Origin: a virus | Virus genome (UHGV): UHGV-0141727 | DNA: 64,000 nt | Strand: one strand, 5' to 3' | Shown: positions 54,714 through 64,000 of the stretch, in pieces | Layout: each line of letters opens with the position of its first letter | How positions within the stretch are numbered: position 1 is the first letter of the stretch | The notes under the pieces: model-generated | Database searches by the model: none | Told to the model about the DNA's origin: nothing | Seen by the model: only the letters and a program-made list of their open reading frames with translations | Made by a program: the position numbers and the translations under genes

Positions 54714-55027
54714 GCTGGCGGGGATGGGGAAGGGCAGAAATCATGATACTCCGCCAGTGCGCCGGGACTATGACAGTCGAGGGTATTGGGAGACTGATCG
54801 GGCGTACCGGTGGTGCTGTCAGGACTAAAGCGCGGCAATTGCGGATCAGCATGATTCTGAAAGGTGACTTTCACCAGTCAGCCAAATACCGGCAGAGCGA
54901 TATAGAGCTGGCGCGGCAGCTTCATCAGTGTGGCGTTCCCCGCCGTGAGATCGCAGAAAAACTCGAAATGCCCTTGGGCATGATTAATCAGTACGTTTAT
55001 TTCGAAAGGAGAGTGCATGAAGTCTGA
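54710..55027 (+). CDS. putative HTH regulator
   Basis: 105-aa ORF, GTG start with AAGGAG RBS; HTH-like ELARQLHQCGVPRREIAEKL. Confidence 0.35.
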   Translation: MSWRGWGRAEIMILRQCAGTMTVEGIGRLIGRTGGAVRTKARQLRISMILKGDFHQSAKYRQSDIELARQLHQCGVPRREIAEKLEMPLGMINQYVYFERRVHEV

Positions 55028-55520
55028 AGGTTTAACGCCCGCACAACTGGCAGAGCGTAACGCTGAGTATGTAACGGAAATTTCCCGACTTGAGAAAGAG
55101 CGCGCGGCGCTGGCGGCGGAGAATGCACTTGCTCGTAAAGCTGTTCAGGCATTCTGTGATGTTGTTGGCGACAACACTGAGATTATCTCCGAGTTGGTTG
55201 GGCGAGATGGCGTTCTGGTTATTTTGGAGGCCATGAAAGTAACAGGAAATATGCCAGCCACCGACGCTTTCCTGGCTGAAATACGTGCGGAGGCACGCAA
55301 CGAGGGGATTAACTACACCGCAAGCCGCCTTGCTGCCGCTTTCAACCACGGATTTATCAATAAGTCTTTACGTGAAGTTTTCGACGTTACACGCATGATT
55401 CTGTCAGCGAAAGAAGAGTTGGCTAATGAACCGCACCCAATTGATGGCCTGTCCGGTGAATATGCGGAGAAATCCCTTGAAGAATGGGCGGAACAGATTC
55501 GCAAAGGAGTTCAGTCATGA
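55017..55520 (+). CDS. Ea22-like protein
   Basis: [12 protein letters not shown] motif shared with 56701..57411. Confidence 0.5.
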   Translation: MKSEGLTPAQLAERNAEYVTEISRLEKERAALAAENALARKAVQAFCDVVGDNTEIISELVGRDGVLVILEAMKVTGNMPATDAFLAEIRAEARNEGINYTASRLAAAFNHGFINKSLREVFDVTRMILSAKEELANEPHPIDGLSGEYAEKSLEEWAEQIRKGVQS

Positions 55521-55750
55521 GCATCCGAACTGAACATGGATTTGGTCCGTCAACGGTCGAAGTCGAATGGCTTGATGATTGCCCTAAGTGCCAGCACGGC
55601 AAAGCCAAGGTAACAGGATGGTCGGTAACCAAAGATTCTTTGTGGGCGGGTGATGAGGCCGTCTGTTCCAAATGCGGTCACAAAGGCGAAATCGATGCTG
55701 ATGGAGAGAATGCCTGGGTGGAATGGGACGAAATCGAGGAGGCACAATGA
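55517..55750 (+). CDS. small zinc-ribbon protein
   Basis: ORF 55484..55750; ATG 55517 with AAGGAG RBS; CPKCQHG...CSKCGH. Confidence 0.4.
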   Translation: MSIRTEHGFGPSTVEVEWLDDCPKCQHGKAKVTGWSVTKDSLWAGDEAVCSKCGHKGEIDADGENAWVEWDEIEEAQ

Positions 55751-56379
55751 GCAATATCGACACACTGGCGCTGCGTGAGGCGGCAGAACGTGCAATTCCG
55801 GCAATGGAACGCCTGTTAATGTTGCCAGTTGATGATGATCTGATAAGTGAACAGGAACTTAAAGATTACGGTGTGGATATTGATGCGCTCAACGCCTTCA
55901 AATTTCTGGCCGGACCAGAAACCGTGCTGGCACTACTGGATGAACGGGAAAGAAACCAGCAATACATCAAACGCCGTGACCAGGAGAACGAGGATATTGC
56001 GCTAACGGTAGGGAAGCTGCGTGTTGAGCTTGAGGAAGCAAAATCAAAACTCAACGAGCAACGCGAGTATTACGAAGGTGTTATCTCGGATGGGAGTAAG
56101 CGTATTGCAGAACTGGAAGCACGGGAAATAAAACCAGCCAAAGGTGAAGTTCTTGTCGTTGTTTCTGGTTTTACTGGTTGCGGAAAAAGCGCCATTGCCG
56201 GGGAAATAGAAATCGCGATGAAGGCTATTGGTGTACCGGTTCAGTGGACTAATGGCGATGCGGAAAAGCGCATGACAGGAGCTGACTGGCTGACAGCAAT
56301 TGAGATGTACAAACCAACTGTGCGCATCGTGGAAGTTAATGTGCCACGCGCCCCTGGCATTCGCATCAAAGGAGAGTGA
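55747..56379 (+). CDS. Ea22-like protein with Walker A-like C-terminal region
   Basis: N-terminal [10 protein letters not shown]...KDYGVDID module shared with 60980..61732; GFTGCGKS motif. Confidence 0.5.
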
Positions 56380-56380
56380 G

Positions 56381-56704
56381 ATGACCACATCGCATTCTGC
56401 AATCACCCAGGAAAAAGTATTTCGCTTGCTCGAACGTCTGGAGGCGCTCGCCACGGAGGAGGATATATCCCCGGAGATGCTGGTCGAGTGCAGCCGTGTG
56501 ATATTGCGTCGCAAGAACGACATCGCGCGGCTGACATCCGGCGCACCATCCGTATCAGCCAGTCCAACGCTTTATTGCAGCTTCTGCAACAAATCCCAGC
56601 ACACCGTTAAAAAGTTAATTGCCGGTGACAACGTTTTCATCTGCAACGAGTGCGTGAAAGATTGCAACAACATTATCCAGGAAGAGCAAAGGGAATCAGC
56701 ATGA
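56381..56704 (+). CDS. protein with ClpX-type C4 zinc-finger domain
   Basis: ORF 56300..56704; ATG 56381 with GGAG RBS; [36 protein letters not shown] matches the ClpX N-terminal zinc-binding domain as recalled from memory. Confidence 0.55.
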
Positions 56705-57411
56705 AATTTTCCAAATTTTCTGAGTTGGTGAATCGTATTTTGTCCAACAACCACAGCCATCGTCGCGATATGGATGTAACAATCGTTATTCATTCGCCTG
56801 GCAGCATTGGTTCAACACCTTCAGTTGAGGTTCAGTCAATTCACGCTGGTTTTGATTGGGATTCCGGGAAAGTGCTGATTTTCCCAGCACAGCCACTGAC
56901 CGCGCTAACACCAGAACAGATTACTGATATCACGGATAGTGTGCGCAAAGGTCAGTCTTGGCACGCATATCAGGAATACAAGAAGCATAAAGAGCAGTTG
57001 GAAAAATTGTCGATTGAACTTGATGCTGCAAGACGGCGCATTACAGAACTGGAGAGCGAACGCGCGGTGCTGGCGGCGGAGAATGCGGATCTGAAGTCTG
57101 TGCACCCTCAACCATTCGGAGCTGAGATGATGAAGGCTCTTGATGCGTATGAGAAGCATCAGGATGAAGTGCCAGAGACTGGAATGCTCAATGCATTTTT
57201 CATCTTGCGCGACAGTATCCGTGTTGACACCCCAGCCACCGATGCTTTCCTGGCTGAAGTACGTGCGCAGGGCGTGGATATGGCTCGTAACGCGATGATT
57301 GATTTTGTCGATGGTGAAGTTGGTCCAAACAAGAATGTTCCGGGGCTGATTAGAGGCGCAGAGATATGCGTAAGTATTGCTGAACAGCTTCGCAAAGGAG
57401 GCAGCCAGTGA
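56701..57411 (+). CDS. Ea22-like protein
   Basis: ORF 56650..57411; ATG 56701; [12 protein letters not shown] motif. Confidence 0.5.
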
Positions 57412-57904: not shown

Positions 57905-58212
57905 GCATCATTGTAGAAATGCCGGTAGAACGTGATGAATATGGCTGCTGGACACATCCGGAGTATGAAAAGTTTTGCGCAGGTCGTGAATATATATCCA
58001 CTGAGGAATTTGACGCCTGGATGAAGGAAAATAATCTTCAGTGGACTATTCGCAGTATGGATGAAGATGATTTTAATCTGGACGCAGATGGCCCCGATAT
58101 TGCCGCCTGGGAACCAGAGCGACCAGAGGGCGAAGGCTGGTTTGTTGGCTCTATTCATGACACTGAAGATGGTCCGGTTTGTATCTGGCTGCGGGAGAAG
58201 GTTGCCGCATGA
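57901..58212 (+). CDS. hypothetical acidic protein
   Basis: ORF 103 aa. Confidence 0.3.
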
Positions 58213-58895
58213 CCCAGGTGCTGCATGAAGTGAATTTATATAGCCGTATTGATGGTTCAGGCTACAGAAACATATGGGTTGTTGGTGATTTGCACGGTTG
58301 CTACACCCTACTTATGAATGAACTCCATCGTGTGGATTTTGACCCTACACAGGATTTACTGATATCGGTTGGCGACCTTATCGATCGCGGCACCGAAAAT
58401 GTTGAATGCCTGGAGCTATTGCAGATGCCCTGGTTTCGGTCGGTTATGGGAAACCACGAGCGATTAATGATCGATGCGTTAAGTCCCGCAGGCAACGTGA
58501 ATAACTGGCTAATGAATGGTGGTCAATGGTTCTTCATGCTGGACGCTGATCGGGAAATATTAGCCAGGGCGCTGGTGGAGCTGGTAAGACGTTTGCCCTA
58601 TATCATTGAGCTGAACACCGGGCATGAAACTATCGTTATAGCCCATGCCGACTATCCTGATAACGAATACCAGTTTGGTAAACCTGTTAGCGATCTCAAT
58701 GTTACCTAGCGGCGTGAGCGATTTTATGACGCGGTTGATGGTGTTGGTGGAATAATCACTGGTGCAGATAGCTTTATTTTCGGGCATACGCCAGTAAGCA
58801 GCCCGAAATCTTTCTGGAACCAGCACTACATAGACACTGGTGCGGTTTTTTGCGGAAATCTGACGCTAAAGCAGGTGAAGGTAGGGCAGTCGTAA
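58209..58895 (+). pseudogene. lambda-type Ser/Thr protein phosphatase interrupted by in-frame amber codon at 58707-58709
   Basis: GDLHG, GDLIDRG, GNHE motifs before the TAG; GHTP and IDTGAVF motifs continue in frame after it. Confidence 0.6.
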
Positions 58896-58999: not shown

Positions 59000-59995
59000 A
59001 TGAGTGCAATAATCACACCTCATTTCGTAAACGGAGCTGGTGTGGCTGTCTTTCCGGTAGACAAGCCCACCAGTAACTACATTGGCGCAGGTCGCCGTTT
59101 CATTATCTCTCCACTTCCGCGTGAACAGGCTGAAAACACGCCAGATGGCGTAGTGGATCTGAATTATTCGCTGGTTGCCAACCAGTCTCTGAAACCGTTT
59201 TTTCAAAGCGAGCGCGTATTTAACGCGTTGGGCGGTGAAGATTCGCTTGTTCATTGGGTAAGTTCCAATATCCACGATTGCCAGGCGCACGATAAGCGCG
59301 ATTGCAGCCACCAGCTAACCACTCATTTCTATAACGGCTCTGCCGTTCGCCTGTGCTGGAAGCATGATGCGGAATACATGATGAAGGGGTACAGCAAGCT
59401 GGACGACCAGTTATCCCTGAATCGTGCCAACTGGGTTATGAACTGGGCTGCGAGCGAGTTAAAACTACCGCCAGAACGCGATCTGAGCATGGTTGAACTC
59501 ACTTTTTGGGCCATTCGCCGAAATCTTAAAGACGAGCTGCCAGATGAAGCCGGTCGCATTGCATTTTGTCAGCCAAAACAGGAAATCCCTACCGGCACAC
59601 TGAAAGAATCGGATATCACCTGGGAGCACAGCACCCGTGAGCTGGTGGACATAACCGCAGAGCAGATCGTCAACCTGTCTGTAGATGAGGATTCCGGCCT
59701 GCTGTATATGCGCCGACCAAAAGCGGTTCTCGGTAAAAGCCCGACTTATCTCCGGTTTGTGATTTCTCGTCCGTGCATCGGATGCGGTGGCAAAGTTAAT
59801 CACCCGTTCATGTACCGCGCCCGCTCGTTAAACGAACACGATCGCTGGGCCGTTCCTCTTTGCGATGAATGCGCCAGAAGCGCAGAAAACGATGTCCGTG
59901 CATGGGAAAAAGCACATGGCATACGCCTTTACGTAGCCGCTAACCAGCTTTTCGACTTCGCCATCGAGCGCGGAGTGATCACGTTCAATAACTGA
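59000..59995 (+). CDS. hypothetical protein with C-terminal Ref-like Cys/His cluster
   Basis: 331-aa ORF; PCIGCGG...H...VPLCDEC resembles the C-terminus of 53255..53830. Confidence 0.35.
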   Translation: MSAIITPHFVNGAGVAVFPVDKPTSNYIGAGRRFIISPLPREQAENTPDGVVDLNYSLVANQSLKPFFQSERVFNALGGEDSLVHWVSSNIHDCQAHDKRDCSHQLTTHFYNGSAVRLCWKHDAEYMMKGYSKLDDQLSLNRANWVMNWAASELKLPPERDLSMVELTFWAIRRNLKDELPDEAGRIAFCQPKQEIPTGTLKESDITWEHSTRELVDITAEQIVNLSVDEDSGLLYMRRPKAVLGKSPTYLRFVISRPCIGCGGKVNHPFMYRARSLNEHDRWAVPLCDECARSAENDVRAWEKAHGIRLYVAANQLFDFAIERGVITFNN

Positions 59996-60011
59996 TGGAG
60001 TGGATCAAAAA

Positions 60012-60734
60012 ATGAAAGAACGCGGGATGATTTTTAACGATGAAATGGTCCGGGCCATCCTCGAAGGAAGAAAAACGCAGACTCGCCGACCTGTAAAAAA
60101 TGTCAGGGCCGATAACTGCCTAGTTATCCGTAAACCGACAAAGAAACGCAATGGTGTCTATACCCACGTTATGGATGCACCTGAACATGGTTTATGCCCG
60201 TTCGGTAACGTTGGTGATCGCATATGGGTCCGTGAAGCGTGGGCGATATTAGGCAATGAGGATGGTTGCAGTGTGGACTGGAACGACAACCTTTGTCGTG
60301 GCGATGAGAAGAACGCAGCAAGGATTTATCGGGCCAGTTGCGAGCAAAAGCCTGGTGATTACGGCTTATGGTCGATACCCGATGATGCCGACTGGAAACC
60401 TCACACTGTGAATGAAAAGTTTGATGGCGGGTGGTGTCCATCAATTCACATGCCGCGATGGGCATCACGCATTCTGTTGGAGATTACCAACGTGCGCGTT
60501 GAGCGGTTGAACGATATCAGCGAATGCGATGCAGGGGCTGAGGGCGTTCCGCCTGCTGGAAGTTTGCTTCCTGATTACCCGGAAACATTCCTTACTCCCA
60601 AGGGGGATTTCGCAATGGCCAAGGTTGCGTTCCAGCGTCTGTGGGAATCCATCTATGGTGAAGAAAGCTGGAACACTAATCCCTGGGTATGGGTAATCGA
60701 GTTTAAGCGTATTCAGGGGGCAACCTGTGAGTGA
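60012..60734 (+). CDS. hypothetical prophage early-region protein
   Basis: ORF 60000..60734; ATG 60012; MIFNDEMVRAILEGRKTQTRR N-terminus. Confidence 0.35.
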   Translation: MKERGMIFNDEMVRAILEGRKTQTRRPVKNVRADNCLVIRKPTKKRNGVYTHVMDAPEHGLCPFGNVGDRIWVREAWAILGNEDGCSVDWNDNLCRGDEKNAARIYRASCEQKPGDYGLWSIPDDADWKPHTVNEKFDGGWCPSIHMPRWASRILLEITNVRVERLNDISECDAGAEGVPPAGSLLPDYPETFLTPKGDFAMAKVAFQRLWESIYGEESWNTNPWVWVIEFKRIQGATCE

Positions 60735-60993
60735 GTCAAAATGCCAAATTAATGGCAACAAGATAGAACCGTGCGCGGCGTTGGCACAATCCCTGGAGCA
60801 TGACGCTGAATACACGACGCGAAAAGGTCTGCTGAAATACAAAATCTATAACCATGCATTAATTCATTCACAAGACCTGATCATGCTGCGGTCAGGCGAG
60901 TTTTCTAAATCGCCTATTCGAGTTTCATTTTGCCCATTCTGTGGTGAAAGTCTGAAAACGTGGGAAGCGGAGGCAGCCAGTGAGCAAAATTAA
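60727..60993 (+). CDS. small Cys-containing protein
   Basis: ORF 88 aa; CPFCGE motif. Confidence 0.25.
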   Translation: MSESKCQINGNKIEPCAALAQSLEHDAEYTTRKGLLKYKIYNHALIHSQDLIMLRSGEFSKSPIRVSFCPFCGESLKTWEAEAASEQN

Positions 60994-61732
60994 CTATCAA
61001 GAACTGCGTGAGGCAGCAGAACGTGCAATTCCAGAAATGGAGCTACTGACGCTTCCATTTGATGCTTGGTTAAGCAAACAGGAGCTTAAAGACTACGGTG
61101 TGGATATTGATGTCATCAACACCTTCAGGCTTCTGGCTGGACCGGAAACCATGCTGGAACTGCTGGATGAAATTAAGCGCCAGGAAGACACAAATATTGA
61201 TGCCACGTGCCGAATTTCAGAGCTTGAGACTATTCTAGCGACGCTGGTGGCAGAGAACGCCGGGCTGAGACACGTAATGACCACCTCCATTGAGCATGAG
61301 AATGTGGAGATTGAGCAAACGGCAGGTTGCCCACGTTTTAAGCTGAAAGGCAAAGACAGACTGATTGCAGATCTTAGAAAGCAACGTGCCGAATGGATAC
61401 GGAAAGCATTGCGTTACTCTGAAGAACGCGCAGCATTGGCTAAACGAATCGAAGAGATGGAGCAGGCCAACACAAGACAGGACGCCAATATAAACCACCA
61501 GCAGGAGGGCGTGACCCAATCAGTCACCCGATACATATATCACTACAACGCAGTGAATGGTTCTGACTCTATGTCTGGAATTGCGCGGTTAAGTTTCATG
61601 ATCAAATCACAATCTGACCTTGAAGAACTTAAAAGCGCGCTTAGGAATATTGGTGGTTTCCGTGCGAAAGCAATTACATCTCTTTCATATCTTGGGCGTG
61701 AGGAAGAAGGGCAAAACGATGAAAAACCGTAA
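60980..61732 (+). CDS. Ea22-like protein
   Basis: GTG start with GGAGG RBS; N-terminal module shared with 55747..56379. Confidence 0.5.
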   Translation: MSKINYQELREAAERAIPEMELLTLPFDAWLSKQELKDYGVDIDVINTFRLLAGPETMLELLDEIKRQEDTNIDATCRISELETILATLVAENAGLRHVMTTSIEHENVEIEQTAGCPRFKLKGKDRLIADLRKQRAEWIRKALRYSEERAALAKRIEEMEQANTRQDANINHQQEGVTQSVTRYIYHYNAVNGSDSMSGIARLSFMIKSQSDLEELKSALRNIGGFRAKAITSLSYLGREEEGQNDEKP

Positions 61733-61895
61733 AGCAAAATTACTTCTTTTATCGCGTTCGACGGGGTACGAGAAGCTACCAATCAGCAATCACAAACGGG
61801 CGGTGATCGGCATGTTTGGTAGGGTGGTATTCGCATTTAACTATAAACCCACCGCGTCGCGGAACAGACGAGAGAAGGGGTACGCAGTGCGATGA
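61719..61895 (+). CDS. small basic protein (MKNRKAK family, copy 1)
   Basis: internal ATG of ORF 61620..61895; paralog of next ORF. Confidence 0.25.
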   Translation: MKNRKAKLLLLSRSTGYEKLPISNHKRAVIGMFGRVVFAFNYKPTASRNRREKGYAVR

Positions 61896-62083
61896 AAAAC
61901 CGTAAGGCAAAGATGCTGATAGCAAAGCCCGGGCAGCGTATCCGTATCTCAAATCGGCTTGTTATTTACTATAGATATCTGGGTTTTAGGGGGTGTTCCT
62001 CTATTCGTTTTTACGGTGTCTGGCGGAGCAGAAGCGCGGCGCAAAACCGCTGGAAAAACCACTTGCGCACTAAAGGAGAGTGA
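61892..62083 (+). CDS. small basic protein (MKNRKAK family, copy 2)
   Basis: ORF 63 aa; overlapping ATGA junction. Confidence 0.25.
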   Translation: MKNRKAKMLIAKPGQRIRISNRLVIYYRYLGFRGCSSIRFYGVWRSRSAAQNRWKNHLRTKGE

Positions 62084-62303
62084 GGTGCCTACACTATTCA
62101 GGAAAAACTATCCGCGAAAGAGTAGAGCAATAGAATTGCTGTTTATCATTCTGTTTTTCGTGTTGCTGATACCAATAGCCTCAATATTAGTGACTGTTCT
62201 AATGGGGAGAGTATTTGAACCGTTAGTTGAACTGTATATCGATATAGTGTGGACCCCATTCAGGAAGCTACACAATAAAATTAACCCACATAAGGAAACA
62301 GAT

Positions 62304-62540
62304 ATGGCAACTTTGACAAAAGAAGATCGTTTTACCAAAAAACAAATCGCCGAGGCAAAAATCCTCGATAACAACGGAACCTACTTCATCAACGGTTCCA
62401 TTCTTCCTGTTTATATCAATGAAGATGGAGACACTTACCTTATTGAAGAGTACGAAAAAGGCGAGCCGAGCGAACACCTCATTAAAGATTTGTTCGCGGA
62501 TGGCGTTATTGTTGCTGTTAATCCGATTGGCTACAACTAA
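62304..62540 (+). CDS. small hypothetical protein
   Basis: C-terminal part of ORF 61959..62540; ATG 62304 with AAGGAAA RBS; in-frame GTG at 62085 would add a TM segment. Confidence 0.3.
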   Translation: MATLTKEDRFTKKQIAEAKILDNNGTYFINGSILPVYINEDGDTYLIEEYEKGEPSEHLIKDLFADGVIVAVNPIGYN

Positions 62541-62550
62541 AGCATAAATT

Positions 62551-63063
62551 ATGACCAGTATTACCAGAGAACAGGCCAAGAAAATTATTGAAGCTGCCGA
62601 TGAGGTTATTAGTGCGCTTGCCGGAACTAACGAGGATGTTCACCCTGGTAGCGATAACATGCTACGTCTGTGGGATGACCTGAATGACCGTTACGCGCCG
62701 CCGGAAGTTGTGCGTGAGCTGGCGCGTATCGTGCTGGCATCGCTGGAAGCGGAGCCTGTAGCGTGGCGATATCGCTACGTGAAAAAAAGCGTTACGGACT
62801 CTCAGGGGGAGCCGTGGGTTGGTGACTGGAAATATGTACCGACAAAAGAGGATTGCAACGACAGGCCGAGCTATGAGATTCAGGCCTTATTCACTGCCCC
62901 GCCAGTCCCGGTGACATCAGAAGGACTGGTTAAAGCCGTGCGTTTCTATGAACAAGTTAAGCGTGAAAATCCGCCAGTCGAAACCGGAGCATGGAAAGAC
63001 GCGGTTGACTGGGTGCTCAAAGAGGCCTGCCAGGTTGTAAACACTGGCATCAAAGGAGACTGA
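62551..63063 (+). CDS. hypothetical prophage early-region protein
   Basis: ORF 170 aa; ASLEAEPVAW motif shared with next-but-one ORF. Confidence 0.35.
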   Translation: MTSITREQAKKIIEAADEVISALAGTNEDVHPGSDNMLRLWDDLNDRYAPPEVVRELARIVLASLEAEPVAWRYRYVKKSVTDSQGEPWVGDWKYVPTKEDCNDRPSYEIQALFTAPPVPVTSEGLVKAVRFYEQVKRENPPVETGAWKDAVDWVLKEACQVVNTGIKGD

Positions 63064-63064
63064 T

Positions 63065-63274
63065 ATGGCTATTGCCGCAAGTTACACCATGCATCTCTAT
63101 TGTGATTGCCTCCAGTGTACAGATGGCAAATATAAGTCGCCAGACTTCGGTGAGTATATCGGTACGTCATGGGCTGGCTGTGCAAAAGAGGCGCGCAAGG
63201 ATGGCTGGCGAATAAGCAAAGACAAAACACGTGCTTTTGCGCCCGGGCATAAAGTTTTGAGGATTAACAAATGA
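63065..63274 (+). CDS. small Cys-rich protein
   Basis: ORF 69 aa. Confidence 0.3.
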   Translation: MAIAASYTMHLYCDCLQCTDGKYKSPDFGEYIGTSWAGCAKEARKDGWRISKDKTRAFAPGHKVLRINK

Positions 63275-64000
63275 CCACTGTAACCGACAAAGAACTGATT
63301 AAAGAAATCAAAGAGCGCATAGGCAGCCTGGACGTGCGAGACAATATTGAGCGCCGGGCTTATGAAATAGCGTTAGCCTCGCTGGAAGCTGAACCGGTGG
63401 CATGGCAGGTCACAATCACAAAAGACGGTCAGGACTCAGCCTCTATTATTTACCGTGACTGTGCAGAGAAAGACACATGGGTTCGGATACATGAGACACT
63501 TGGTTCTGTCGTACATGTCACTCCGCTTTACATGGCACCGCCAGCGCCGGTAACACAGGCTGATGTCGCGCAAGCAATTGAAAATCTCAGGCAGAAGTTA
63601 GTGGAATGCAATCGCTATAACTACTGCGCAGATGCAGTTAAGGGCGTAGAGGATGCCTGCCACGCTACCATGCTTCAGGGTAGCCAACCTGTAAGCCAAA
63701 CTTACAACTTGCCAGAATTAATCGAAGGGATGGAAGTTTCCATTGATGTAAGCACTTGTGATGCTGATTTAGGTAATCGCTATTTCGGCACCGTCACCGA
63801 GGCGTTAGAACTTGATACAGCCAAGAATGGTTACATCCTCCTGGTTCAGGACGCAGAGCCAAACTTCGATGTAAATGGCAACTCTCCGGGAACTCCGGAT
63901 AGTTGGATAAGCTGTAGTGAGCGAATGCCAGATGATGGTCAGCACGTAATTATTTTATGTGATGGCGCATTCGTTCTTTATGCGCAATATCGAGACGGAG
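63271..64000 (+). CDS. DUF551-like protein (3' partial, runs off window)
   Basis: ATG 63271; open to end of window; SWISCSERMPDDGQHVII motif. Confidence 0.4.
   Translation, partial: MTTVTDKELIKEIKERIGSLDVRDNIERRAYEIALASLEAEPVAWQVTITKDGQDSASIIYRDCAEKDTWVRIHETLGSVVHVTPLYMAPPAPVTQADVAQAIENLRQKLVECNRYNYCADAVKGVEDACHATMLQGSQPVSQTYNLPELIEGMEVSIDVSTCDADLGNRYFGTVTEALELDTAKNGYILLVQDAEPNFDVNGNSPGTPDSWISCSERMPDDGQHVIILCDGAFVLYAQYRDG

What the first reader, a model, noticed from the sequence alone, without database searches (positions are those of the whole stretch)
56381..56704. Phage protein ending in a ClpX-type zinc-binding domain
The last 40 residues ([36 protein letters not shown]) closely match the N-terminal C4 zinc-binding domain of ClpX as I recall it, the domain used for adaptor and substrate recognition. 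A phage protein carrying it could compete for ClpX adaptors or substrates and so modulate host proteolysis.
Basis: partly seen in the sequence, partly recalled or inferred. Interest (0 to 1): 0.5.

Follow-up and report, generated by a model that had tools for sequence, protein, structure and literature searches.

The report
Phage copy of ClpX docking domain
A small gene on an E. coli phage-plasmid encodes a helical hairpin fused to a close copy of the zinc-binding docking domain of the host unfoldase ClpX, and it most likely acts as a decoy that diverts adaptors or substrates from the ClpXP protease, though this has not been tested.

Summary
Window 56381-56704 (+) is a 107-aa gene whose residues 63-102 are a ClpX C4 zinc-binding domain (ZBD): Pfam PF06689 E=1e-17, E. 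coli ClpX ZBD structures E=1e-15, 29/43 residues identical, identical CxxC-x18-CxxC spacing, and a predicted fold 1.9 Å from 2DS5-8. There is no AAA+ module, so it is not a ClpX.

The window is a D6-like (P1-family) phage-plasmid. The N-terminal 52 residues form a predicted helical hairpin found only fused to a ZBD. The family has two subfamilies in three temperate-phage types in Escherichia, Shigella and Salmonella: D6-like phage-plasmids, P2-like P88 prophages, and lambdoid prophages, where it sits in an early-left-type gene block with ral, cIII, kil and abc2. Each subfamily is in about 2% of complete E. coli genomes.

Some ligand-pocket residues are kept (F16, I46, L13, H23) and others changed (L12→T family-wide; L42→D in this clade). 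The literature held here shows that isolated ZBD added in trans inhibits adaptor-dependent ClpXP degradation.

A decoy of the ZBD-dependent branch of ClpXP is the best-supported mechanism (confidence about 0.45) but is inferred. I found no paper on the family; RefSeq already names it 'ClpX C4-type zinc finger protein'. Interest is moderate.

The parts
56381..56704 (+). Complete CDS, 107 aa plus stop; the hairpin+ZBD protein (PHROG 6797; D6 orf93/gp034 homologue)
   Evidence: ORF and sequence. RefSeq CDS at the same position in 99.4%-identical plasmids, named 'ClpX C4-type zinc finger protein'. PHROG 6797 full-length, E=1e-56.
56370..56374 (+). Shine-Dalgarno AGGAG, 6 nt before the ATG. The upstream gene's TGA stop ends at 56379, two bases before the ATG (tight spacing consistent with coupled translation).
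   Evidence: Read directly from the sequence.
56381..56536 (+). N-terminal domain, residues 1-52: predicted helical hairpin (helices 10-25 and 31-52) with an invariant E36-C37. Found only fused to a ZBD.
   Evidence: AF2 model, pLDDT 80-88 in this part. Exhaustive phmmer against 1.84 billion representatives: 9 hits, mostly hairpin+ZBD proteins or truncated copies, plus two repetitive unrelated-looking proteins. dN/dS 0.26 and 0.21 in the two subfamilies.
56537..56566 (+). Flexible linker, residues 53-62 ([10 protein letters not shown])
   Evidence: pLDDT below 60, no secondary structure. dN/dS 0.97 and 0.74, and length varies between subfamilies.
56567..56686 (+). ClpX-type C4 zinc-binding domain, residues 63-102. 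Zn ligands: C66 (56576-78), C69 (56585-87), C88 (56642-44), C91 (56651-53). Pocket residues: F68 (=ClpX F16), I98 (=I46), L64 (=L13 in Met-inclusive numbering), H74 (=H23). Changed residues: T63 (=L12) and D94 (=L42).
   Evidence: Pfam PF06689 E=9.8e-18. PDB sequence hits to ClpX ZBD. Foldseek to 2DS5-8 and 1OVX: rmsd 1.8-2.0 Å, 68-72% identity. Per-position table.
56687..56701 (+). Short variable C-terminal tail (QRESA). No conserved degron across the family.
   Evidence: Alignment A1 shows different C-termini in different members.

Best explanation
[quoted passage not shown] Proposed mechanism (inferred): the ZBD folds around one Zn, dimerises as the ClpX ZBD does, and presents a ClpX-like hydrophobic docking pocket. 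When the phage accessory or early operon is expressed, the protein binds ligands that normally dock on the ClpX ZBD. These are adaptors (SspB tail, RssB) and N-domain-dependent substrates or degrons (lambda O-type initiators, MuA, UmuD', unfolded MqsA-type antitoxins). Binding keeps them away from ClpXP. That would selectively block the adaptor- and N-domain-dependent branch of ClpXP proteolysis and leave direct, ssrA-type degradation intact. The result would be stabilisation of a phage protein or a host regulator or antitoxin to the phage's benefit. The conserved hairpin probably adds oligomerisation (avidity) or a second specificity.

Shown here: domain identity, architecture, conservation, and distribution in three temperate-phage lineages. 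Inferred: Zn binding, dimerisation, ligand binding and any effect on proteolysis.
For: - Strong, specific match to the ClpX ZBD by HMM, PDB sequence and predicted fold.
- All four Zn ligands are invariant in 53/53 family members.
- Experimentally defined ligand-pocket residues are retained. F16 is invariant and I46 is hydrophobic in 51/53; these form the pocket used by lambda O, trigger factor, SspB and RssB (PMC7804408). L13 is L/I/V and H23 is H or Y in nearly all members; ClpX mutants at these two positions lose binding and degradation of the MqsA degron, and H23 is also reported as important for the SspB tail (PMC8808172).
- Isolated E. coli ZBD in trans inhibits RssB-dependent sigma-S degradation by ClpXP (PMC7226468, Fig. 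1d). Deleting the ZBD abolishes lambda O and sigma-S degradation but not ssrA-type degradation.
- No AAA+ module is present, so the protein cannot itself unfold substrates.
- The gene is kept under purifying selection: dN/dS is 0.21-0.27 for the hairpin and the subfamily B ZBD. Synonymous sites against E. coli clpX are saturated (61% nt identity), so this is an old, maintained gene rather than a recent fragment.
- In a lambdoid prophage it sits on the same strand as, and downstream of, ral, cIII, kil, a Rad52-type recombinase, ssb and an anti-RecBCD gene. This is the layout of a lambdoid early-left (pL) operon, the block of small host-modulating proteins; lambda CIII is known, from my own knowledge, as an FtsH inhibitor.
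- It occurs in the same slot of P2-like prophages (after gpA-ParM-StbB, before the portal gene) and in the D6 accessory operon. This is independent retention in three phage types that share the same host ClpX.
Against: - There are no experimental data for this protein or family.
- The pocket is not identical to that of ClpX. L12 is Thr in 47/53 members, and ClpX L12S impairs MqsA-degron binding (PMC8808172). P31-S32 is D/E-x in all of subfamily A. The otherwise hydrophobic position 42, one helical turn from I46, is Asp in this window's clade.
- The subfamily A ZBD evolves fast (dN/dS 0.69).
- In vitro, 5-20 µM free ZBD was needed against 0.6 µM ClpXP, so a plain ZBD is a weak competitor.
- The most constrained part is the hairpin, which a pure decoy model does not explain.
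- Expression timing in the D6-like element is unknown. No promoter or P1-type C1 operator was found.
Confidence: 0.45

Rival explanations
1. Subunit mimicry. The phage ZBD heterodimerises with the N-domain of ClpX itself. ClpX N-domains normally pair as three dimers per hexamer. The heterodimer would graft the phage hairpin onto the unfoldase. The hairpin then either blocks the docking platform (a poison subunit) or recruits a phage-chosen target to ClpXP (a hijacking adaptor).
For: Identity to the E. coli ZBD is 67-77%, including the hydrophobic core positions 27/28, 33, 35, 40, 43 and 47. The ZBD is a constitutive dimer (PMC7226468, PMC8808172). The hairpin is the most conserved part, is always linked to the ZBD by a flexible tether, and has no other home. 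This is what one would expect if the ZBD is the anchor and the hairpin the effector.
Against: ClpX ZBD dimers are reported as stable and constitutive, so subunit exchange with a free phage ZBD may not occur. L42→D and D41→K in this clade lie in the C-terminal helix and could disturb either interface. No candidate cargo gene is conserved next to it.
Confidence: 0.15
2. A function independent of ClpX. The ZBD is re-used only as a compact Zn-dependent dimerisation or peptide-binding module. The real activity lies in the hairpin, for example binding another host or phage protein, or nucleic acid, as a small regulator.
For: PF06689 occurs in other non-ClpX architectures found in the searches, such as a tandem double ZBD (P0025) and a ZBD plus a second Cys-rich region (P0027, P0030). 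It also occurs in other phage families: PHROGs 12435, 5259 and 20296, and a 65-aa Pseudomonas phage protein. Surface positions of the subfamily A ZBD drift (dN/dS 0.69) while the hairpin is constrained. Several ClpX pocket residues are altered.
Against: The similarity to enterobacterial ClpX is far higher than fold maintenance needs, and it includes surface pocket residues F16, H23 and I46. The subfamily B ZBD is tightly constrained (dN/dS 0.27) and is 77% identical to the E. coli ZBD by hand count sequences. The hairpin has no detectable similarity to any DNA-binding or other known domain.
Confidence: 0.25
3. The antitoxin or immunity component of a two-gene toxin-antitoxin or defence module, with the ZBD targeting it to or from ClpXP.
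For: A weak PHROG hit to an 'antitoxin' family (phrog_4681, E=0.1). In P2-like prophages it lies in the variable region between gene A and the portal gene, which I recall as a hotspot for defence genes (own knowledge). The stop codon overlaps the start of the next gene.
Against: The downstream gene is not conserved between contexts: window gene against P88 gp20 gives E=4.1, and neighbour clustering found no partner shared by both subfamilies. There is no PADLOC hit for it or its neighbours. The neighbours are mosaic Ead/Ea22- and DUF551-type genes.
Confidence: 0.07
4. A non-functional remnant of a captured clpX 5' end.
For: It covers only the first ~50 codons' worth of ClpX. Truncated or frameshifted copies exist (P0042, P0045, P0046).
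Against: Intact ORFs occur in over 60 viral contigs and over 200 E. coli genomes across three phage types. dN/dS is well below 1 for the hairpin. There is a good SD and tight operon spacing. Zn ligands are invariant. Synonymous divergence from clpX is saturated while the protein sequence is maintained.
Confidence: 0.03

Closest known systems
N-terminal zinc-binding domain of E. coli ClpX (Pfam PF06689; PDB 1OVX, 2DS5-2DS8)
   Same: Same fold prediction and the same CxxC-x18-CxxC Zn site. 29/43 residues are identical. Pocket residues F16, I46, L13 and H23 are kept.
   Different: The domain is at the C-terminus of a 107-aa protein rather than the N-terminus of a 424-aa AAA+ unfoldase, with no ATPase, pore loops or ClpP-binding loop. 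L12→T, P31S32→DN, Y34→F, D41L42→KD. It is preceded by a family-specific helical hairpin.
Phage P88 gp19 (YP_009113062; P2 family) and phage D6 orf93/gp034 (YP_009914770); PHROG 6797
   Same: Same family and architecture. D6 orf93 is the direct homologue (88% nt identity over 94% of the gene). P88 gp19 is the subfamily B representative, 46-50% identical in the hairpin.
   Different: The subfamily B ZBD is closer to host ClpX (PS at 31-32, L42, Y34 retained) and more constrained. Both are uncharacterised and carry the misleading name 'carboxylate--amine ligase' in GenBank.
Phage-encoded inhibitors of host AAA+ proteases: lambda CIII (FtsH), T4 PinA and T7 Gp4.5 (Lon), SPO1 Gp53 (ClpC). All recalled from own knowledge.
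   Same: A small early or accessory phage protein expected to modulate a host ATP-dependent protease. In a lambdoid prophage it lies on the same strand and in the same gene block as cIII.
   Different: No sequence relationship to any of them. The proposed mode, copying the protease's own substrate- and adaptor-docking domain as a decoy, has not been described for these inhibitors. Activity here is untested.
Anti-adaptors IraD/IraM/IraP of E. coli
   Same: [quoted passage not shown] ZBD and IraD are proposed to share a docking site on RssB (PMC7226468).
   Different: Ira proteins are unrelated in sequence, chromosomal, and specific to RssB. A ZBD mimic would be expected to bind several ZBD ligands.

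Membership tests
zf-C4_ClpX domain (Pfam PF06689) | Profile-HMM score above the curated gathering threshold | tested here: met
   64.2 bits against a cut-off of 27, E=9.8e-18, covering profile positions 2-39 of 39.
zf-C4_ClpX domain (Pfam PF06689) | Four Cys Zn ligands with ClpX spacing (C14, C17, C36, C39: CxxC-x18-CxxC) | tested here: met
   C66, C69, C88 and C91 align to the ClpX ligands and are invariant in 53/53 family ZBDs.
zf-C4_ClpX domain (Pfam PF06689) | Fold of the solved ZBD (beta-hairpin plus C-terminal helix) | tested here: met
   The AF2 model (pLDDT 80-87 in this part) matches 2DS5, 2DS6, 2DS7, 2DS8 and 1OVX at rmsd 1.8-2.0 Å and target-normalised TM 0.68-0.75. This is a prediction, not a structure.
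zf-C4_ClpX domain (Pfam PF06689) | Zn binding and constitutive homodimer | not testable with these tools
Needs metal analysis and SEC-MALS or native MS.
zf-C4_ClpX domain (Pfam PF06689) | ClpX-like adaptor/substrate docking pocket (F16, I46; L12, L13, H23) | tested here: inconclusive
   F16, I46, L13 and H23 are kept. L12→T across nearly the whole family, L42→D in this clade, and P31S32→D/E-x in subfamily A. Residue roles are taken from PMC7804408 and PMC8808172.
ClpX AAA+ unfoldase (NCBIfam TIGR00382 / NF003745) | AAA+ ATPase module with pore loops and ClpP-docking loop; full-length equivalog score | tested here: not met
   The protein ends 5 residues after the ZBD helix. It scores 47.5 and 43.6 bits against cut-offs of 359 and 371, matching only model positions 5-50.
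Toxin-antitoxin antitoxin (PHROG 4681) | Significant family match and a conserved adjacent toxin gene | tested here: not met
   E=0.1 only, restricted to the ZBD. No conserved neighbour across contexts. No PADLOC hits.
Phage early host-takeover proteins (functional class) | Located in an early operon with known host-modulating genes | tested here: met
   In lambdoid prophage locus L083 the gene follows, on the same strand, Ral, CIII, Kil, Rad52-type recombinase, SSB, Anti-RecBCD_p2 and Ead_Ea22. Operon identity is inferred from gene order. Timing in the D6-like element itself is unknown.
Phage early host-takeover proteins (functional class) | Demonstrated effect on a host target (here ClpXP) | not testable with these tools
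   Requires degradation assays and genetics.

The most novel reading that the evidence does not exclude
The protein is a viral subunit mimic. Its ZBD pairs with the N-domain of host ClpX and grafts a phage-specified helical hairpin onto the unfoldase. This would re-programme which proteins ClpXP docks and degrades, rather than simply titrating ligands. It would be a way of hijacking an AAA+ protease by copying its own receptor domain.
Probability: 0.12. Interest if true: 0.75.

Novelty: new variant of a known kind. Interest (0 to 1): 0.45.

Why it matters
ClpXP controls phage replication initiators such as lambda O, Mu transposition, sigma-S, SOS components, ClpXP-labile antitoxins and type I restriction alleviation.

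A natural, phage-encoded copy of the ClpX docking domain would be the first example I know of in which a virus modulates an AAA+ protease by mimicking its receptor domain. It would also give a selective genetic tool to switch off only the adaptor- and N-domain-dependent branch of ClpXP.

The family is not rare. Each subfamily is in about 2% of complete E. coli genomes, across P1-like, P2-like and lambdoid elements. It is currently mis-named in many records. The hypothesis can be tested directly with existing ClpXP assays.

Tried and rejected
- A genome-contig scan with the hairpin alignment gave 316 pattern matches, none confirmed. The one-genome-per-species set apparently lacks these prophages.
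- A search for a P1 C1 operator (ATTGCTCTAATAAATTT, up to 3 mismatches) found 0 sites in the window. The sigma-70 scan found no + strand promoter near the operon. Expression timing in the D6-like element stays open.
- PADLOC gave no defence-system match for the gene or four neighbours.
- The conserved-partner test failed: the window's downstream gene against P88 gp20 gives E=4.1, and neighbour clustering found nothing shared by both subfamilies.
- The hairpin has no structural relatives in the PDB or BFVD libraries; every hit at E<=0.001 in PDB, and the best BFVD hits, fall on the ZBD.
- Eight literature searches found nothing on stand-alone phage ZBD proteins. Terms included ClpX zinc finger variants, zf-C4_ClpX, PF06689, phrog_6797, protein accessions and ClpX inhibitor plus phage.
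- The primary ZBD papers (Thibault 2006 PNAS, Wojtyra 2003 JBC) are not held. My recollection that free ZBD blocks lambda O degradation is therefore not cited as evidence.
- I considered an XB-like motif in helix 2 (RVILRRK). I dropped it because it does not fit the LKxh / LRVVK consensus and lies in a predicted helix.
- I considered a link to type I restriction alleviation, which is ClpXP-dependent (PMC11109961), because hsdR lies about 5 kb away in a related plasmid. No hsdR-sized ORF was seen in window 59000-64000 (ORFs running off the window end are not listed), and P88 and lambdoid carriers show no such link. It is kept only as a possibility.

Full report
**1. The observation**

Window 56381-56704 (+) is a 107-aa ORF.
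- An AGGAG lies 6 nt before the ATG.
- The upstream gene's TGA stop ends two bases before that ATG.
- The gene's own TGA overlaps the ATG of the next gene (ATGA at 56701). The spacing is that of a tightly packed operon.

The C-terminal part is a ClpX-type zinc-binding domain (ZBD).
- Pfam PF06689 (zf-C4_ClpX) matches residues 65-101 at 64.2 bits against a cut-off of 27, E=9.8e-18.
- phmmer against all PDB sequences returns the E. coli ClpX ZBD entries first: 1OVX at E=1e-15 and 2DS5 at 4e-15.
- 29 of 43 aligned residues are identical to E. coli K-12 ClpX.
- The four Zn ligands (C66, C69, C88, C91) align to ClpX C14/C17/C36/C39 with the same CxxC-x18-CxxC spacing.

An AlphaFold2 model built on 16 homologues (mean pLDDT 77) has three parts: a helical hairpin (helices 10-25 and 31-52), a low-confidence linker (53-62), and a beta-hairpin-plus-helix domain. 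Foldseek places that last domain on the solved ZBD structures 2DS5-8 and 1OVX at rmsd 1.8-2.0 Å.

One small correction: the quoted peptide is 36 residues, not 40.

**2. What the element is**

The gene is 99.4% identical to a CDS on about 90-kb circular E. coli plasmids, and 88% identical to orf93 (gp034) of Escherichia phage D6, a P1-family phage-plasmid. Window 40000-64000 aligns at 96-98% over 82-89% of its length to such plasmids, which carry tail, tape-measure and baseplate genes.

The gene lies in a + strand accessory operon divergent from ref. The order is: DUF4406, a small DNA-binding-like protein, several Ead/Ea22-type mosaic proteins, the ZBD gene, another Ea22-related protein, DUF4752, two small unknowns, a ppp-like metallophosphoesterase, and a pdcB-like DUF968 gene.

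RefSeq names the product 'ClpX C4-type zinc finger protein'. GenBank records for D6 and P88 call it 'carboxylate--amine ligase', for which I found no support.

**3. It is not a ClpX**

The protein ends five residues after the ZBD helix. The NCBIfam ClpX equivalogs match only model positions 5-50, at 44-48 bits against cut-offs of 359-371.

Nucleotide identity to E. coli clpX over the ZBD is 61%, and third-codon positions are 47% identical. This is an old acquisition kept by selection on the protein, not a recent fragment.

**4. The family**

I searched the N-terminal 60 residues exhaustively against 1.84 billion representative proteins. There were nine hits. Seven are hairpin+ZBD proteins or truncated or frameshifted copies of them. 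The other two are repetitive proteins with no apparent relationship.

Seventy-five viral contigs encode the hairpin. In the 63 whose ORF I could extract, 38 of 39 distinct proteins carry the ZBD.

Two subfamilies exist.
- Subfamily A is window-like.
- Subfamily B is like phage P88 gp19. It is 46-50% identical in the hairpin, and its ZBD is about 77% identical to the E. coli ZBD (hand count sequences).

The family occurs in three contexts.
- D6-like phage-plasmids.
- P2-family prophages (P88 and relatives), always after gene A (replication endonuclease), ParM and StbB, and before the portal gene. Both subfamilies occur there.
- A lambdoid prophage, where the gene lies on the same strand as, and downstream of, Ral, CIII, Kil, a Rad52-type recombinase, SSB, an anti-RecBCD gene and Ead/Ea22. 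That is the layout of a lambdoid early-left operon.

No neighbour is conserved across these contexts apart from frequent Ead/Ea22-type genes.

Prevalence in complete E. coli genomes is 109 of 5426 for subfamily A, with 104 of the copies on plasmids. It is 112 of 5426 for subfamily B, almost all chromosomal. On plasmids the hairpin occurs only in Escherichia, Shigella and Salmonella.

**5. Selection and residue-level comparison**

Pairwise Nei-Gojobori dN/dS values:

| Region | Subfamily A | Subfamily B |
|---|---|---|
| Hairpin | 0.26 | 0.21 |
| Linker | 0.97 | 0.74 |
| ZBD | 0.69 | 0.27 |

Both domains are maintained, the linker is a free tether, and the subfamily A ZBD surface drifts.

The table below compares ligand-pocket residues with ClpX. 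Rows give the numbering used in the cited paper. PMC7804408 counts from the mature protein and PMC8808172 includes Met1, so L12, L13 and H23 are positions 11, 12 and 22 in the table. L42 uses the mature numbering of that table.

| ClpX residue | Known role | Status in the family |
|---|---|---|
| F16 | Hydrophobic side pocket used by lambda O, trigger factor, SspB, RssB (PMC7804408) | Invariant |
| I46 | Same pocket | Hydrophobic in 51/53 |
| L13 | Needed for MqsA-degron binding (PMC8808172) | L, I or V |
| H23 | Needed for MqsA-degron binding; also reported for the SspB tail | H or Y in nearly all members |
| L12 | ClpX L12S impairs MqsA-degron binding | Thr in 47/53 |
| P31-S32 | Not defined here | D/E-x in all of subfamily A |
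| L42 | One helical turn from I46 (position inferred from periodicity) | Asp in 8/32 of subfamily A, including this window |

The docking pocket is therefore largely, but not wholly, ClpX-like. Specificity probably overlaps with that of ClpX and is not identical to it.

**6. Mechanism**

Published experiments show three relevant things.
- The ClpX ZBD is the docking platform for SspB, RssB, trigger factor, lambda O, MuA, UmuD', FtsZ and unfolded MqsA.
- Removing it abolishes lambda O and sigma-S degradation but not ssrA-type degradation.
- Free ZBD added in trans inhibits RssB-mediated sigma-S degradation (PMC7226468, Fig. 1d).

A phage protein made of a ClpX-like ZBD with no unfoldase module is therefore most simply a competitor for those ligands.

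Weaknesses of the decoy model:
- The in-vitro competition needed a large molar excess of ZBD.
- Several pocket residues are altered.
- The model does not explain why the hairpin is the most conserved part.

I suggest, as inference only, that the hairpin supplies oligomerisation or a second binding site.

Rival explanations:
- Heterodimerisation with ClpX's own N-domain, acting as a poison or hijacking subunit (0.15).
- A ClpX-independent role in which the ZBD is only a dimerising Zn module (0.25).
- A toxin-antitoxin or defence partner (0.07). There is no conserved partner and no PADLOC hit.
- A dead fragment (0.03), contradicted by conservation.

**7. Comparison with what is known, and novelty**

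As a domain, this is a clear member of PF06689 and is already labelled as such by RefSeq.

As a protein family (PHROG 6797, 'unknown function'), it has no literature that I could find. Other phages also carry stand-alone ZBDs: PHROGs 12435, 5259 and 20296, a 65-aa Pseudomonas phage PP9W2 protein, and Caulobacter phage Cr30.

Functionally, its nearest analogues are phage inhibitors of host AAA+ proteases (lambda CIII, T4 PinA, T7 Gp4.5, SPO1 Gp53; own knowledge) and the Ira anti-adaptors. None of them copies the protease's own receptor domain.

I class it as a new variant of a known kind, of moderate interest. The domain call is solid and already annotated. The mechanism is attractive, easy to test, and unproven.

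Noticed in passing
window 58209-58895 (stop at 58707-58709): The ppp-like metallophosphoesterase carries an in-frame amber codon (TGG→TAG, W167*) relative to the 228-aa gene of the related plasmid NZ_CP085065 (96% nt identity, no indels). It is therefore truncated to 166 aa or is a pseudogene in this element.
   Followed up: yes
window 55017-55520 and 56701-57411: The gene immediately downstream of the ZBD gene shares a module with the gene at 55017-55520, earlier in the same cluster (LE.ERA.LAAENA ... PATDAFLAE[IV]RA; 36% identity over 91 aa, E=5e-10). Both hit PHROGs 368, 614 and 492. The ZBD gene is embedded in a set of mosaic Ea22-type paralogues of unknown function.
   Followed up: partly
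P0001 / P0003, L-series loci: A common variant of about 120 aa (clusters of 98 and 57 member sequences) replaces the first 8 residues with the N-terminus of an Ead/Ea22-like protein (MKSEGLTPAQLAERNAEL...). That N-terminus is the same as the start of window ORF 55017. It looks like a deletion or recombination fusing the two genes, and it shows that N-terminal extensions are tolerated.
   Followed up: partly
window 55484-55750 (+): An 88-aa ORF with two CxxC pairs (CPKCQH ... CSKCGH), giving a weak rubredoxin-like Zn-ribbon hit and matching PHROG 4446 (unknown function). It overlaps both flanking Ea22-type genes, and the arrangement differs from the related plasmid L001.
   Followed up: no
GenBank/RefSeq records NC_050154 (D6 gp034), NC_026014 (P88 gp19) and many E. 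coli assemblies: This family is widely annotated as 'carboxylate--amine ligase'. No search here supports that name (only PF06689 is found), so it appears to be a propagated misannotation.
   Followed up: partly
window 62551-63063 (+) and L079 5330-5668 (P88 gp20): Window ORF 62551-63063 ends with a module (LVKAVRFYEQV ... AVDWVLKEACQVVNTGI) that I also saw, by eye, in the P88-type gene immediately downstream of the subfamily B ZBD gene. This is another sign of module shuffling between these phage types. No alignment or domain search was run on it.
   Followed up: no
Residue C37 of the protein (window 56489-56491): A fifth cysteine, in the invariant pair E36-C37 in helix 2 of the hairpin, is conserved across both subfamilies even though they are only about 46% identical there. 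Its role is unexplained.
   Followed up: no
L001 13449-16324 (NZ_CP085065): A related D6-like plasmid carries a type I restriction hsdR gene about 5 kb downstream of the ZBD gene. ClpXP degrades HsdR during restriction alleviation (PMC11109961), so an interplay is conceivable, but no hsdR-sized ORF was seen in window 59000-64000.
   Followed up: partly
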